Below are positions 8,876 to 63,265 of a stretch of DNA of 64,000 nt, one piece after another. Under the pieces are notes generated by a model. The model saw nothing but the letters and a program-made list of their open reading frames with translations, ran no database searches and was not told the origin of the DNA. The DNA comes from Octopus vulgaris. Taxonomy: Eukaryota. The position numbers and the translations under genes were made by a program. The first letter of the stretch is position 1. Every line of letters starts with the position of its first letter. The stretch is from NCBI GenBank assembly GCA_951406725.2, contig OX597816.1, positions 60,512,001 through 60,576,000 of the forward strand, given 5' to 3'.

Positions 8876-8982
8876 ATTTCTTATACGATGCACCGTTTCG
8901 TCTACTGTTTAATGGTAAACTAACCTGATTAAATTAAATCAAGCCAATCTACCATAGGCCCTTAGATTCATCAGTAAGAAAT
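8876..8982 (-). ncRNA. Type I hammerhead ribozyme, copy 1 of the 494-bp unit
   Basis: Reverse complement of 10146-10252. Confidence 0.8.
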
Positions 8983-9369
8983 AGCCAAGTCGGAACAGAT
9001 ATTTTTCACGAGGCATTCCCGTCCCTGCCTCGGCAATATCTGACCTAAAATTTTCAAATCATCGCACTCGCGCCAAATTTATCGGCAGCAAATAAATATA
9101 AGCCGCCGATTCCATTACGGAACTAACCAGAAAATTCATAATTAATCAATATAGGGTGGCAAAAAAAAATTTTGTAGAATCTTATTGCCACCAGCGGCCT
9201 AGTGGGAAAAAATTAAATAGTCATAAACCATTTTTAAGTTCAACATCACAATCAAGGAACGGCCATAATAGGCCATTCACCCACTAGAAATAACAGCCAA
9301 AAGCTTCAACTGCAAAATAACATCAATTCCGTAAACCAGGAGAAAATTAAAAAAAACATTTACCCTGTA

Positions 9370-9476
9370 ATTTCTTATACGATGCACCGTTTCGTCTACT
9401 GTTTAATGGTAAACTAACCTGATTAAATTAAATCAAGCCAATCTACCATAGGCCCTTAGATTCATCAGTAAGAAAT
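9370..9476 (-). ncRNA. Type I hammerhead ribozyme, copy 2 of the 494-bp unit
   Basis: Reverse complement of 10146-10252. Confidence 0.8.
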
Positions 9477-10145
9477 AGCCAAGTCGGAACAGATATTTTT
9501 CACGAGGCATTCCCGTCCCTGCCTCGGCAATATCTGACCTAAAATTTTCAAATCATCGCACTCGCGCCAAATTTATCGGCAGCAAATAAATATAAGCCGC
9601 CGATTCCATTACGGAACTAACCAGAAAATTCATAATTAATCAATATAGGGTGGCAAAAAAAATTTTGTAGAATCTTATTGCCACCAGCGGCCTAGTGGGA
9701 AAAAATTAAATAGTCATAAACCATTTTTAAGTTCAACATCACAATCAAGGAACGGCCATAATAGGCCATTCACCCACTAGAAATAACAGCCAAAAGCTTC
9801 AACCGCAAAATAACATCAATTCCGTAAACCAGGAGAAAATTAAAAAAACATTTACCCTGTAATGTTGAACATTTACCCTGTGATGTTGAACTTAAAAATG
9901 GTTTATGACTATTTAATTTTTTCCCACTAGGCCGCTGGTGGCAATAAGATTCTACAAAATTTTTTTTGCCACCCTATATTGATTAATTATGAATTTTCTG
10001 GTTAGTTCCGTAATGGAATCGGCGGCTTATATTTATTTGCTGCCGATAAATTTGGCGCGAGTGCGATGATTTGAAAATTTTAGGTCAGATATTGCCGAGG
10101 CAGGGACGGGAATGCCTCGTGAAAAATATCTGTTCCGACTTGGCT

Positions 10146-10252
10146 ATTTCTTACTGATGAATCTAAGGGCCTATGGTAGATTGGCTTGATTTAATTTAAT
10201 CAGGTTAGTTTACCATTAAACAGTAGACGAAACGGTGCATCGTATAAGAAAT
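10146..10252 (+). ncRNA. Type I hammerhead ribozyme with a long stem II extension
   Basis: Stem I ATTTCTTA/TAAGAAAT; core CTGATGA (10154-60); stem II TCTA/TAGA; GAAA (10229-32); stem III ACGG-TGCA-TCGT; predicted cleavage after GUA (10244). Confidence 0.82.
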
Positions 10253-11349
10253 TACAGGGTAAATGTTTTTTTTAATTTTCTCCTGGTTTACGGAATTGAT
10301 GTTATTTTGCGGTTGAAGCTTTTGGCTGTTATTTCTAGTGGGTGAATGGCCTATTATGGCCGTTCCTTGATTGTGATGATATATATATATATATATATAT
10401 ATATATATATATATATATATATATATATATGTATATATATATATATATACATGTATGTATATATGTATATATACATATATATATATATATATATATGTAT
10501 ACATATGAATATAAACATAAAAATGGAACAAAAACGCAATAGAGGGCATTAAAACATTTGGACAGATAAATGACACAAAGGCGGACAAGAGAAACAACAA
10601 TTAGAAGAACAGGCAAAAAAAGACGGGTCATTCTTGGTTTTCTTTCATCAGTCAAGTCCCAGAAGTCACGACCACTTCGGGCAGTTACACTTGAGATAGT
10701 TCGATCTGGTTGCTCCCAAAAGTGTGTAAGGTAAGAGCATTATACCCCATGCAAGAAAGCTAGCGAATGTGTACGGAAACAAAGAGAAAAAAAACAAAAC
10801 AAAACAACAACAAAAAAATGGAGAACAAGGTACACAATTATGAATACAAACAATAAGAAATAACAACAGGTGTCATACATACTTACATACATACATACAT
10901 TCATACAAACATGCAGGCATACATACATACATACACGCATGCTTGCATACATACATACATACACACACTCACACACACACACACATACATACATACATAC
11001 ATACATACATACATACATACATACATACATACATACATACATACAGACATACAGACATACATACATACATACAAACATAAATGTATATGTTGGCTGTGTT
11101 AAACTAAACTTCAGAGTGACGGTAACATAAATAACAATATTAGTCTATCTTGGATTAAAAACTATTTTCCCCTCCCTTTGGATGATATACATTTGCATCA
11201 ACAAAAGGCATGATATACGAAAGGGATAGGGATACCGATAAAACACCTACTCTTTTATATTGTTTGGAAATCAGACGCTATAAAAACGACTAAACATAGT
11301 CACATGTTGGCTCGTCATAATTCTTGCACAGTTTCACTGTTTTAATGAT

Positions 11350-60195: not shown

Positions 60196-60645
60196 AGGCA
60201 GCGAGCTGGCAGAATAGTTACTGCGCCAAGCAAAATGCTTAGCGGCGTTTCGTCCGTCATTACGTTCTGAGTTCAAATTCCGCCGAGGTCAATTTTGCCT
60301 TTTATTTTTTCGAGATCGATAAAATAAGTACCAGTTGAGCACTGGGGTTGATGTAATCCACTTACCCTTCACCCGAAATTGCTGGCCTTGTGTCAAAATT
60401 TGAAATCACTACTCATTTAACTTAAGGTAGGTACCTGGCAGACTCATTAACACGTCGGATAAAAATGCCTTCAGGCATTTCTTCTGACTCATTACATTCT
60501 GAGTTCAAATACCGCCGACGTTGACTTTGCCTTTCAGCTTTTAGAGATCGATGAAATAAATGCCAATTGAGCAGTAAGGTCGAGATACTCGATTAATCCC
60601 CTCCCTTTAACATTGCTTGCCTCGTTCCAAAATTAGAAAGAATTA
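60196..60645 (+). mobile_element. Two tandem SINE family B copies
   Basis: Heads at 60196 and ~60425. Confidence 0.8.
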
Positions 60646-61728
60646 TTCAAATAGATATAACAAAACGCCCATCTATCAAAATTTAGATTTCCTGTCACTC
60701 GCTGAAAGAAGCAACAATCTGTCACCCTACAAAACGTAAAACATTATTTACATTCAGATCAAGATCTTCAAGTTCTTAAAAAATATCGAATGAAGGAAAG
60801 AAAATGCTGTTGAAAGAAGGAAAAAAGCTATCCAATAATAATGGTGATTGAATTACAACAGGAAGTTCCGATTTCTACAGAGAATTCTTTTTCGATTTTC
60901 TTGCAAACGAAAGAAAATGTTTGCAAGTAATCCATCGTTAATTCACCTGATTTGCATACATTCATACATACATATATACATGCATGTATATTTTCAACAT
61001 ATATGTATCATTGTGTACACACACACGCACACATTATATATATATATATATATATATATATATATATATATATATATATATATATATATATATATATATA
61101 TATATATATATATATATATATATATATATATATATATATATATATATATATATATATATAATGTATGTATGTGTATATATGTGTGTGTTCGTGTGTGTGT
61201 ATGTGTGTAAATATATATATATATATGTAATAGTTGAAACCTGGCAAGCATACTGTTCAAATAATTAAACGATGATTAGTTATACTTCAGTCGATTATCA
61301 AAAGTGCACTTCGTACGGTTCGGCGAACGAATGCCATTTATTTCATATTACAAATAAAGTAAAGCAATCCATGGAATAATATTTGCGTTCACTCATATTT
61401 TCAGGCATTTTAATTTAAATCACAATCAGCTAAAATTGATATGTATATGTATGTATGTATGTATGTATGTATGTATGTATGTATGTATGTATGTATGTAT
61501 GTATGTATATATATATATATATATATATATATATATATATATATATATATATATATATATATATATATATATATATATTTACAGGGAAAAAATCAGATTT
61601 AGGATTAAATCCAATTTTATAGTAAAATATTATATAATATTAATTCGAGACAAAACCACTATTTTGCAAAACAAACAAGGAAAGACTTAATCAATACATA
61701 AACATTTTTAATATAAAGAAATAAACCG

Positions 61729-61771
61729 CCACTACAATCGTTTCATGTCTTCAATGACATTCGTCAGGTGG
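61729..61771 (-). ncRNA. Minimal type I HHR with canonical core
   Basis: CCAC-CTGACGA-ATGTC attgaa GACAT-GAAAC gatt GTA-GTGG. Confidence 0.82.
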
Positions 61772-62512
61772 ATTTTCGATCTAAAATATCAATATATTAA
61801 AATATAAGTTTAAAATAATAAAATTATCAATGAAAAATATAAATATATATAATCTATATATAATCTATATATAATCTATATATAATCAATATATAATCTA
61901 AAATAAACCCTATAAACAATTGAATATAAAGAAACCTATTATTAAAGTTCTCATATTTAAAGATGTACAAAAAACAAAAAACAAAAAACAAAAAACAAAA
62001 ACAAAAACAAAAAACAAAAAACAAAACATATATATGTGTGTGTGTGTGTGTGTGTGTGTGTATATATGTATGTATATAGGTGAGAGAGTCGGTATGTGAA
62101 AGCACATGATTGGATGTATAAAAGACAAAATAGAGTGAAAAAAACTGCAGAAGCCTTGTGTTATATGGCTAAAGAATATATTTAAATCGTTATGTTAGGA
62201 AAATGTTATGAAATTTTGCGTAATGTAATATTGTTTTTGGAGAAATAACCGGTTTCGTGCTTTCTTTTCAAATTTCTCAAATTTCTTTACCGATATTCTG
62301 TCAACTCTTTGCTATGAAGTAAAGTATGAGAGTTCTAGACTGGGGAAGGTAATCAAGGATTTTTTCGGTATAAGGGAGTTAATAAAAAATGTTGGGAATG
62401 ACTAGGTTTTATTAATTTAATATGATTTGGTTTATAAAGAATAGAATGTTAGAAGTGGTTAAGTTTTGCTTTACATTTTTTCAATGAGGTAAGTTTCCTT
62501 ATTTAAAATTGC

Positions 62513-62828
62513 TAGAAATGGTTAAGTTTTGGCTTATATTTTTCAATGAAGTAGGTTTACTTATTTAATCTAACTTGTGTTAGTGTTCCAATGGCACATT
62601 GATAAAATGGAAAGATTTCAAATCGTGGTAGCAGTTGCTTTGTGCATTTCTCAATGTGTTCACTAAAGGGTATCATTCTGTATTCTGGGAATGCAATCTG
62701 CTGTCGGTGCAGAATGCATCTGCGTCTGAGGGATAATCCCGTAGACCCTATGTAGTTTTGGTGGCAGCCCAAGCATCTTATAACATAAACCAGGTTTTCT
62801 GAGGCACAAGTAAAGTCAGATTTGATTT
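62513..62828 (-). pseudogene. PLE GIY-YIG endonuclease domain
   Basis: KIKSDFTCASENLVYVIRCLGCHQNYIGSTG..LRRR..LH....SEH...NK*TYFIEKYKPKLN. C-C-H-H motif present; the conserved Glu codon is now a stop. Confidence 0.88.
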
Positions 62829-63265
62829 TTGGAAATTACAAAGAGGGATAAAAATTCAAAATCAAATCTGACTTTACTCTCATACAAGCAACATGTACTT
62901 AAAACGCCTTAAGAAAATACGAAAATGCAATATTTTCAACAATTTTAATATCATGATTAGCGAAACGCAAGGTCCGTAGATTATCATAATATTCTGTCCT
63001 TTAAAATATATTAAATATATATAAACTGTGTGCATTTTCTTTCTCTTGAAATATATATAATATATATTTTTTTCACTAGAACTCACCAAGTAGGGGAAAA
63101 TCTCTTCAACGAAATTATTTTTACTCTCTCTCTTTCTCTCTCTCCCCCTCTCTCTCTCTCTCTCTCTCTCTCTCTCTCTCTATCTCTATCTATCTATATA
63201 TATATATATATATATATATATATATATGTATAAATATATATATGTGTGTGTGTGTGTGTGTGTGT

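What the first reader, a model, noticed from the sequence alone, without database searches (positions are those of the whole stretch)
8876..62878. About ten HHR motifs from at least five families in 64 kb, nearly all in (TA)n arrays, with a PLE endonuclease remnant as likely mobiliser
Seen: HHR motifs at 8876, 9370, 10146, 17047, 18784, 30461, 30754, 41812, 44785 and 61729. The last lies downstream of a GIY-YIG domain on the same strand and its element also ends in (TA)n. Host repeats lack poly(A) tails and visible TSDs and often show inversions. Known: tandem/inverted termini and HHRs are PLE hallmarks. Inference: a PLE-driven, (TA)n-targeting set of ribozyme elements, implying very many HHRs genome-wide and possible cleavage of intronic pre-mRNA.
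Basis: partly seen in the sequence, partly recalled or inferred. Interest (0 to 1): 0.75.

Follow-up and report, generated by a model that had tools for sequence, protein, structure and literature searches.

The report
Hammerhead retrozymes and Penelope remnants
The ten hammerhead-ribozyme-like motifs are real but sit in only seven insertions of five repeat families, mostly beside TA microsatellites; they are likely non-coding passengers and broken ends of Penelope-type jumping genes, a known kind of animal element, and whether these copies cut RNA is untested.

Summary
All ten motifs are there and exceed chance (perfect-core descriptor 6 hits vs 0.25 in shuffles), but they are seven insertions of five families. 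Five pass a strict descriptor, four carry one core substitution, and one has a broken stem II. Structure is under selection: compensatory pairs between related families D and E, and in family A only N7 among the listed core positions varies across thousands of contigs. Six of seven insertions end at (TA)n on the 3' side, though some SINE-like repeats do too. The endonuclease remnant is a 5'-truncated Neptune-like Penelope element. It shares no detected sequence with the other families, so it is not shown to be their mobiliser. A, D and E fit animal non-LTR retrozymes. HHRs in Penelope elements, (TA)n bias and an octopus Hydra element are published. No host gene was found; intronic cleavage is unsupported. 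The best new detail is A's geometry: one arm starts 6 nt after the ribozyme cut, the other is one unit plus about 6 nt. This scan noted such elements before, in this genome and others.

The parts
8648..9863 (-). Element A, direct arm: 2.5 tandem copies of a 494-bp non-coding unit. Its RNA-sense 5' end lies 6 nt after the predicted ribozyme cut; its 3' end runs into (TA)n.
8876..8982 (-). A hammerhead, copy 1: perfect core, 8-bp stem I, long extended stem II, A.C mismatch at 10.1-11.1
9370..9476 (-). A hammerhead, copy 2; predicted cut between 9378 and 9377; most family copies have A-U at 10.1-11.1
9864..9878 (.). Junction filler between the two arms of A, made of short pieces of both arm ends
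   Evidence: sequence
9879..10378 (+). Element A, inverted arm: one full unit plus about 6 nt; its 3' end at (TA)n lies 102 nt short of the direct arm's 3' end
10146..10252 (+). A hammerhead, copy 3
16980..17209 (+). Element B1: single 230-bp monomer between two (TA)n arrays, with a minimal-type HHR (core 17051). 17075-17121 is a 47-bp piece identical to 18160-18206.
18751..18950 (-). Element C: about 200 bp between (TA)n arrays; HHR with G12A (core 18840) and a Hydra-like stem III layout (by eye)
   Evidence: comparison
30245..30969 (.). Element D: two head-to-head arms of a 359-bp unit between (TA)n arrays, each with a canonical type I HHR carrying C3U (cores 30499-, 30760+). The arms' 3' ends differ by 47 nt.
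41764..41921 (+). Element B2: diverged B-family monomer; full core (41816), broken stem II; ends in (TATG)n, not (TA)n
44568..45033 (+). Element E: 1.3 copies of a 353-bp unit related to D, between (TA)n arrays; HHR with A15.1U and a C.A pair at the base of stem II (core 44790)
45121..45183 (-). 3'-end fragment of family B without HHR, ending at (TA)n at the same point as B1
61579..62878 (-). Element F: 5'-truncated Neptune-like Penelope-like element; 3' end at (TA)n
61728..61771 (-). F hammerhead: perfect core, stems I 4 bp, II 5 bp, III 3 bp; about 740 bp downstream of the ORF's stop
62512..62835 (-). C-terminal GIY-YIG endonuclease remnant with CCHH residues and one in-frame stop; 83% identical to P0001, 68% to the RT+EN protein P0003
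62837..62878 (+). Inverted 5' piece of F, coding residues 208-221 of P0001, which overlap the start of the truncated body

Best explanation
The window holds seven insertions of five hammerhead-bearing repeat families, likely copied from RNA into (TA)n microsatellites by Penelope-like element (PLE) enzymes: F is a broken autonomous PLE, A, D and E are likely non-LTR retrozymes, and B and C are likely short non-autonomous PLE ends. Shown: the motifs, their conserved pairing, the tandem and head-to-head layouts, the fixed 3' ends at (TA)n, and the endonuclease remnant. Inferred mechanism: a PLE GIY-YIG endonuclease cuts (TA)n; the freed DNA ends prime PLE reverse transcriptase at fixed internal sites of the element RNA; one or both ends are extended; two-armed copies arise when two cDNAs are joined head to head through short homologies. 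For A the template was probably a ribozyme-processed RNA (a cut multimer or a circle). For B-E the copies here run straight through the ribozyme site, so their templates were likely uncut or circular. Most copies in this window are predicted to cut weakly or not at all. Which PLE family moves A-E is not shown.
For: Descriptor counts above shuffles. D vs E: 6 of 19 pairs change on both sides, 94.7% of cells paired, at most 1 such pair in slid controls, and each family has the core base that the other lacks (three sequences, two families). Family A in four runs: of 13 core positions only N7 appears among the 40 of 42 differences shown, stem changes mostly keep pairing, and 73-95% of depth has U at 11.1. 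A's HHR folds at z -4.8 and its monomer at z -5.1. The six ends of A, D and E defined by self-homology all meet (TA)n within 5 bp. HHR core within 350 nt of an array on its 3' side in 6 of 7 insertions vs 0.157 background (p about 1e-4, threshold chosen after seeing the data). Contigs in two other runs end in (TA)n at the same point as A's inverted arm (table 7). F matches proteins with RT, CX4CX2C linker and C-terminal GIY-YIG. The inverted-arm-plus-tail layout is described for PLEs (PMC3846280). (TA)n bias and HHRs are described for PLE clades, including Hydra-1_Obim in Octopus bimaculoides (PMC8557442). Retrozymes as PLE passengers: PMC7229834, 10.64898/2026.07.22.740005.
Against: No sequence link between F and A-E was found. 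No genome was available, so no full census and no empty sites. (TA)n adjacency is shared by other repeats: 3 of 5 hits of one SINE family, 3 of 3 copies of another and 2 of 2 MITE-like copies lie within about 100 bp of an array, against 0 of 17 hits of a third SINE family. A 5' end at the cut holds for 1 of the 5 arms of A, D and E. Only the A folds beat all shuffles; B1, B2, C, D, E and F motifs do not (z +0.8 to -1.6). The runs are contigs and 'RNA' is a guess, so expression, cutting and circles are not shown. The stem I U-A to C-G pair appears at matching shares in one run (19.5/15.5%) but not in another (21/0%).
Confidence: 0.75

Rival explanations
1. All families are just truncated 3' ends (pLTRs) of several autonomous PLEs, and A's tandem array arose by DNA-level duplication; there are no independent retrozymes.
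For: F is such a truncated end. B and C are single monomers. PMC4209133 reads most single minimal HHRs as truncated PLEs.
Against: A, D and E run more than one unit with no coding sequence. D and E have canonical helix sizes (6-bp stem I, extended past a bulge, and 4-bp stem II). No loose end shown for A points to an ORF (24 of 155 rows shown). A's 3.5 units differ by one substitution plus homopolymer lengths, which fits one copying event.
Confidence: 0.2
2. The (TA)n arrays are not targets but tails, or microsatellites that grew after insertion, as for some SINEs of this genome.
For: Other repeat families also abut arrays. B ends at the same base before (TA)n or (TATG)n in three copies. Only 11 of 76 array edges belong to the seven HHR insertions.
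Against: Five of 7 insertions have arrays on both sides, including the 5' side of single-arm B1, C and E, where no tail would be added. (TA)n preference is listed for octopus PLEs in PMC8557442.
Confidence: 0.15
3. A LINE-type enzyme (for example the HERO-like or RTE-like elements in the window), not a PLE, mobilises the non-coding families.
For: RT-bearing non-LTR elements are present. PMC7229834 names LINEs as possible mobilisers.
Against: No poly(A) tail and no shared 3' end with these LINEs in the self-comparison. Head-to-head arms with an optional 3' extension are the PLE pattern (PMC3846280).
Confidence: 0.07
4. The motifs are chance matches in repeat-rich DNA.
For: Rfam finds none at gathering score. 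Most small motifs fold no better than shuffles.
Against: Descriptor excess over shuffles and reversed sequence, covariation and core conservation in family A.
Confidence: 0.02

Closest known systems
Metazoan non-LTR retrozymes (Cervera and de la Pena 2020, PMC7229834, passages and Discussion read; Li, Clavereau and Pollet 2026, 10.64898/2026.07.22.740005, parts 1-3 of 5 read, supplements not seen)
   Same: ORF-free repeats of a few hundred bp with one type I HHR per unit (A 494, D 359, E 353 bp; the published range is 51-972 bp); structured monomer; co-occurrence with PLEs.
   Different: Copies here are short two-armed or 1.3-2.5-unit insertions in (TA)n rather than long satellites. A has a 68-nt extended stem II closed by A-U. 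Circles and cleavage are not shown. No cephalopod retrozyme was found in the papers read or listed.
Neptune clade of EN+ Penelope-like elements (as described in Craig et al. 2021, PMC8557442, passages, Hydra section and supplement parts read)
   Same: F: C-terminal GIY-YIG with CCHH; relatives with DKG motif, RT and CX4CX2C linker; HHR in the 3' non-coding region; 5' truncation with inversion; 3' end at (TA)n.
   Different: F is a dead 1.3-kb fragment. Neptune versus Nematis was judged by motifs and by eye, not by a tree.
Hydra clade PLEs, e.g. Hydra-1_Obim (PMC8557442 supplement)
   Same: (TA)n insertion preference in an octopus. C's HHR has a short inverted triplet around one base in stem III and lies about 40 nt from the 3' end, as in several Hydra consensus sequences (by eye).
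   Different: F's endonuclease has CCHH, which Hydra lacks. No Hydra coding sequence is attached to C, and no extended identity to Hydra-1_Obim was seen by eye.
Minimal HHRs of metazoan PLEs (Cervera and de la Pena 2014, PMC4209133, abstract and Results read)
   Same: B-type motif with an extra base before stem II and almost no stem III; palindromic stem III in the others; many families per genome; pairs on opposite strands 100-700 bp apart.
   Different: Only the host genome and the sequences are new.

Membership tests
Type I hammerhead ribozyme | Core CYGANGA...GAAA...UH with three helices in type I order | tested here: met
   Met in full by A x3, B1 and F; one core substitution in C, D x2 and E; stem II broken in B2
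Type I hammerhead ribozyme | Helices conserved by covariation across family members | tested here: met
   D/E: 6 of 19 pairs change on both sides. A: variation at N7 and in pairing-neutral stem positions. Not examined for B, C, F.
Type I hammerhead ribozyme | Self-cleavage at the UH site | not testable with these tools
   Only indirect: A's direct arm starts 6 nt after the site, and 3 of 4 listed joints in other contigs fall 1-3 nt after it
Non-LTR retrozyme (A, D, E) | Non-coding tandem unit with one type I HHR per unit | tested here: met
   A has two consecutive full HHR units; D and E have 1.2-1.3 units per arm; no Pfam hit in their ORFs scanned (D, E)
Non-LTR retrozyme (A, D, E) | Expressed as monomeric linear and circular RNA | tested here: inconclusive
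   A is present in two runs guessed to be RNA, and one contig crosses the unit junction, but DNA contigs do too
Non-LTR retrozyme (A, D, E) | Homology of the unit to a PLE pLTR | tested here: inconclusive
   None to F's 3' region; other PLE families of the genome were not available
EN+ Penelope-like element, Neptune clade (F) | [quoted passage not shown] | tested here: met
   EN ends the ORF in the window; relative P0003 has RVT_1 plus GIY-YIG; the RT itself is missing from this copy
EN+ Penelope-like element, Neptune clade (F) | CX2-5CxxC linker before the EN | tested here: met
   Present in the relatives P0001 and P0003; truncated away in the window
EN+ Penelope-like element, Neptune clade (F) | RT phylogeny placing it in Neptune rather than Nematis | not tested
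   No reference set usable for a tree
EN+ Penelope-like element (F) | HHR in the terminal region; 5' inversion; microsatellite target | tested here: met
Hydra clade (F) | EN lacks CCHH | tested here: not met
   F has CCHH residues
Naiad clade (F) | EN N-terminal to RT | tested here: not met
   The ORF ends right after the EN

The most novel reading that the evidence does not exclude
Element A is a single frozen copying event in which a Penelope reverse transcriptase, primed from both ends of a break in (TA)n, read one ribozyme-made 494-nt RNA circle: one arm rolled 2.5 turns and stopped at the ribozyme cut, the other made one turn plus about 6 nt. This would be a direct genomic footprint of the proposed but unshown rolling-circle route of animal retrozymes, in a family with an unusual hammerhead (68-nt stem II closed by A-U).
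Probability: 0.35. Interest if true: 0.68.

Novelty: new member of a known kind. Interest (0 to 1): 0.38.

Why it matters
That animal retrozymes are copied from circular RNA by PLE enzymes is proposed in print (PMC7229834; 10.64898/2026.07.22.740005) but not demonstrated. A young, very abundant family with fixed 3' ends, two-armed insertions and breakpoints near the ribozyme cut makes this testable by counting ends genome-wide. It also indicates that this genome holds many HHRs that Rfam misses at its thresholds; the main text of a 2026 Octopus vulgaris repeat annotation (PMC13282606) does not contain the words ribozyme or hammerhead. The system itself is a known kind, and this scan has reported it several times.

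Tried and rejected
Rfam at gathering score: 0 hits. No whole genome is held, so no census. A B-family pattern found 0 matches in metagenome contigs, and P0001 found no confirmed relative among 70 candidate stretches, so no outside loci of B or of a full PLE were obtained. The EN remnant alone hits no Pfam family; its identity rests on homologues. Host exons: 145 of 188 filtered ORFs outside the known transposon coding regions and element A were scanned. The only hit at a curated cut-off was Clc-like at 39456-39698, which overlaps a T-rich tract and found no homologue among 89 candidates; I rejected it as likely spurious, so intronic status stays unknown. The descriptor hit at 2480(-), the repeated hit at 9088/9582/10040 and the hit at 58984 were treated as chance. 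F as the source of A-E: no similarity (about 670 of F's roughly 930 non-coding 3' bases went into the pairwise test). Cut-site-defined 5' ends as a general rule: rejected, since they are true for 1 of 5 arms; D's right arm and E both start about 100 nt after the cut. Summed depth was not used as a copy number. A circular-fold script returned no answer; a linear fold was used instead. Family-level variation of B, C, D, E and F was not examined in sequencing runs, so it remains open whether their damaged bases are private to these copies. A look-up of earlier findings by A's sequence found nothing.
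Full report
Setting. The window is AT-rich animal DNA full of microsatellites, SINE-like repeats, mariners and non-LTR remnants. I read it as octopus-like from recall of its repeats and from earlier AI notes; no call here establishes the organism. No whole genome is held.

The motifs. All ten positions hold a type I hammerhead layout. A descriptor with a perfect core finds five of them (8974-, 9468-, 10154+, 17051+, 61767-) and one weak extra hit at 2480-. That is 6 hits against 0.25 in 40 shuffles (max 2) and 0 on the reversed window. 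With one core mismatch allowed and stem I of 5 bp or more there are 12 hits against 1.24 in 25 shuffles (max 4; reversed 2). B2 has a full core but a broken stem II and passes neither. Repeated copies inflate these counts: the strict set is three independent insertions. Rfam reports nothing at gathering score. The ten motifs belong to seven insertions and five families.

Selection on the fold. D and E are related along the whole unit. On the HHR structure that I named, 6 of 19 pairs change on both sides and 94.7% of 57 cells pair; slid controls give at most one such pair. This is only three sequences from two families. Each family keeps the core base that the other has lost. For A, one unit was laid on four runs: 4,886 and 6,378 contigs in two DNA runs, 50 and 118 in two runs guessed to be RNA. 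Among the 40 of 42 differences shown, the only one in the 13 core positions is N7. At 11.1 the majority letter (95, 73, 90 and 74% of depth) gives an A-U pair at the base of stem II, whereas all three window copies have A.C, so the copies here are a minority, probably weakened form. A stem I U-A to C-G change shows matching shares in one run (19.5 and 15.5%) but not in another (21 and 0%). A's HHR folds with z -4.8, its stem II being an extended 18-bp hairpin, and the monomer with z -5.1. The other six motif folds do not beat shuffles.

(TA)n. The window has 38 (TA)>=8 arrays, and 1.8% of other positions lie within 15 bp of one. Ten of 14 insertion ends do. Ends chosen by eye at an array are circular evidence, so two further checks were made. 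First, the six ends of A, D and E are fixed by self-homology and all meet an array within 5 bp. Second, the HHR core lies within 350 nt of an array on its 3' side in 6 of 7 insertions against 0.157 background (p about 1e-4, threshold set afterwards). Contigs in the two RNA-guessed runs end in (TA)n at 9243 and 9244, the same point as A's inverted arm (24 of 155 loose-end rows shown). Against specificity: 3 of 5 hits of one SINE family, 3 of 3 copies of another and 2 of 2 MITE-like copies also lie within about 100 bp of an array, while 0 of 17 hits of a third SINE family do. B2 is not at an array, and F only at its 3' end.

The endonuclease. 62512-62835 (-) codes the C-terminal GIY-YIG domain of a PLE, with the CCHH residues and one in-frame stop; the ORF ends right after it. 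It is 83% identical to P0001 over 104 aa and 68% to P0003 over 105 aa. P0003 has RVT_1, a DKG motif, a CX4CX2C linker and a terminal GIY-YIG. By the clade features in Craig et al. (PMC8557442; passages, Hydra section and supplement parts read) this is Neptune-like, not Hydra or Naiad; Nematis is not excluded. The 5' end is truncated and carries an inverted 42-nt piece of the same ORF. F shares no detected sequence with A-E. C's HHR resembles Hydra-clade HHRs by eye, and that paper lists Hydra-1_Obim, Naiad_Obim and Naiad_Ovul with (TA)n preference. More than one PLE clade could therefore act here, and F is not shown to be the mobiliser.

Geometry. A is a direct arm of 2.5 units and a head-to-head inverted arm, joined by 15 nt made of pieces of both arm ends. 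Its 3.5 units differ by one substitution plus homopolymer lengths, which points to one template. The predicted cut lies between 9378 and 9377 in unit 2. The direct arm's 5' end maps to 9371, 6 nt after the cut. The inverted arm is one unit plus about 6 nt. In other contigs, 3 of the 4 listed joints have a side at 9374, 9374 and 9376, and another joint lies at 9383. These are single contigs with 23-24-nt sides, which the tool flags as unreliable. The two arms' 3' ends differ by 102 nt in A and 47 nt in D, like the optional tail of inverted PLE repeats (PMC3846280, passages). The cut-site rule is not general: D's right arm and E both start at a homologous point about 100 nt after the cut, and D's left arm starts upstream of the core.

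How it likely works. Inferred: PLE endonuclease opens (TA)n, the DNA ends prime PLE RT at fixed sites of the element RNA, and one or both ends are extended and joined through short homologies. For A the template was probably ribozyme-processed; a circle explains the one-turn arm and the multi-turn arm, but an incompletely cut multimer is not excluded. The two-ended reading reuses the wording of earlier notes (e1-8807236, e1-8669605); the coordinates are from this window. The other copies span their ribozyme site, so their templates were likely uncut or circular, in line with weak minimal HHRs (PMC4209133, abstract and Results). Expression, cutting and circles are not shown: all runs are contigs, and the unit junction is crossed in DNA contigs too.

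Intron claim. No host exon was established, the motifs lie five on each strand, and 8 of 10 have a damaged core or stem II base here. The claim is unsupported.

What is known. HHRs in PLE ends, thousands per genome in many families (PMC4209133); non-LTR retrozymes, including 126,247 HHRs in axolotl, with PLEs proposed as carriers (PMC7229834, passages and Discussion); retrozymes as PLE derivatives (10.64898/2026.07.22.740005, parts 1-3 of 5; supplements not seen); (TA)n bias and an octopus Hydra element with HHR (PMC8557442). Six literature searches listed no paper on cephalopod retrozymes. PMC13282606 (passages) reports Penelope-like families in Octopus vulgaris without the words ribozyme or hammerhead in its main text. 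Supplements of PMC7229834 and PMC4209133 were not read and may list octopus motifs. This scan has noted the same kind of element repeatedly.

Verdict. Real, and ordinary in kind: new members of known element classes. Modest added value lies in A's end geometry, which makes the retrozyme copying route testable. Interest 0.38.

Noticed in passing
window 19920-20005 (-), 3' region of a HERO-like non-LTR element at about 19900-23520 (-): Hammerhead-like parts in an unusual order: stem II 5' strand (20005), GUC site with stems III and I (19962), GAAA (19946), then a core with G5A (19926). Stems are 5, 7 and 4 bp; 0 hits in 60 shuffles, but the descriptor was written after seeing it. The stem II strand is detached from the core, unlike the permutations in PMC10085705 (abstract and two sections read). 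The lead came from earlier notes e1-8672283 and e1-8663719; the HERO label is recalled, not from a call.
   Followed up: partly
window 10507-10873 (-): A further element between two microsatellites with a perfect CUGAUGA at 10651 and a 6-bp stem I to an upstream UC site, but no stem II found; possibly a decayed or permuted hammerhead.
   Followed up: partly
window 17075-17121 and 18160-18206: A 47-bp piece identical to sequence 1.1 kb away sits in element B1 just after its ribozyme core and is absent from B2; it looks like a templated repair insertion.
   Followed up: partly
window 62447-62568: The last 60 nt of F's ORF are duplicated in tandem (85% identical) just after the stop.
   Followed up: no
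window 30529 and 44568: D's right arm and E begin at the same homologous point about 100 nt after the cut, and D's left arm and E end 7 nt apart; this hints at a shared start site and a sequence-directed 3' end.
   Followed up: partly
window 39456-39698 (+): Pfam Clc-like hit exactly at its cut-off, overlapping a strong pyrimidine tract ending in CAG at about 39577; no homologue found. Probably spurious, but a short exon is not excluded.
   Followed up: partly
window 15560-16480, 53150-53960, 58702-59975: Three decayed mariner-type transposons; the last has 36-bp terminal inverted repeats.
   Followed up: no
window 6479-6957, 24126-24497, 51285-51651: A SINE-like repeat occurs with internal 184-bp tandem duplications at three loci.
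   Followed up: no
window 32980-34400 (-): A second, more decayed HERO-like remnant with traces of a similar stem-GAAA arrangement after its ORF; it did not pass the descriptor.
   Followed up: no
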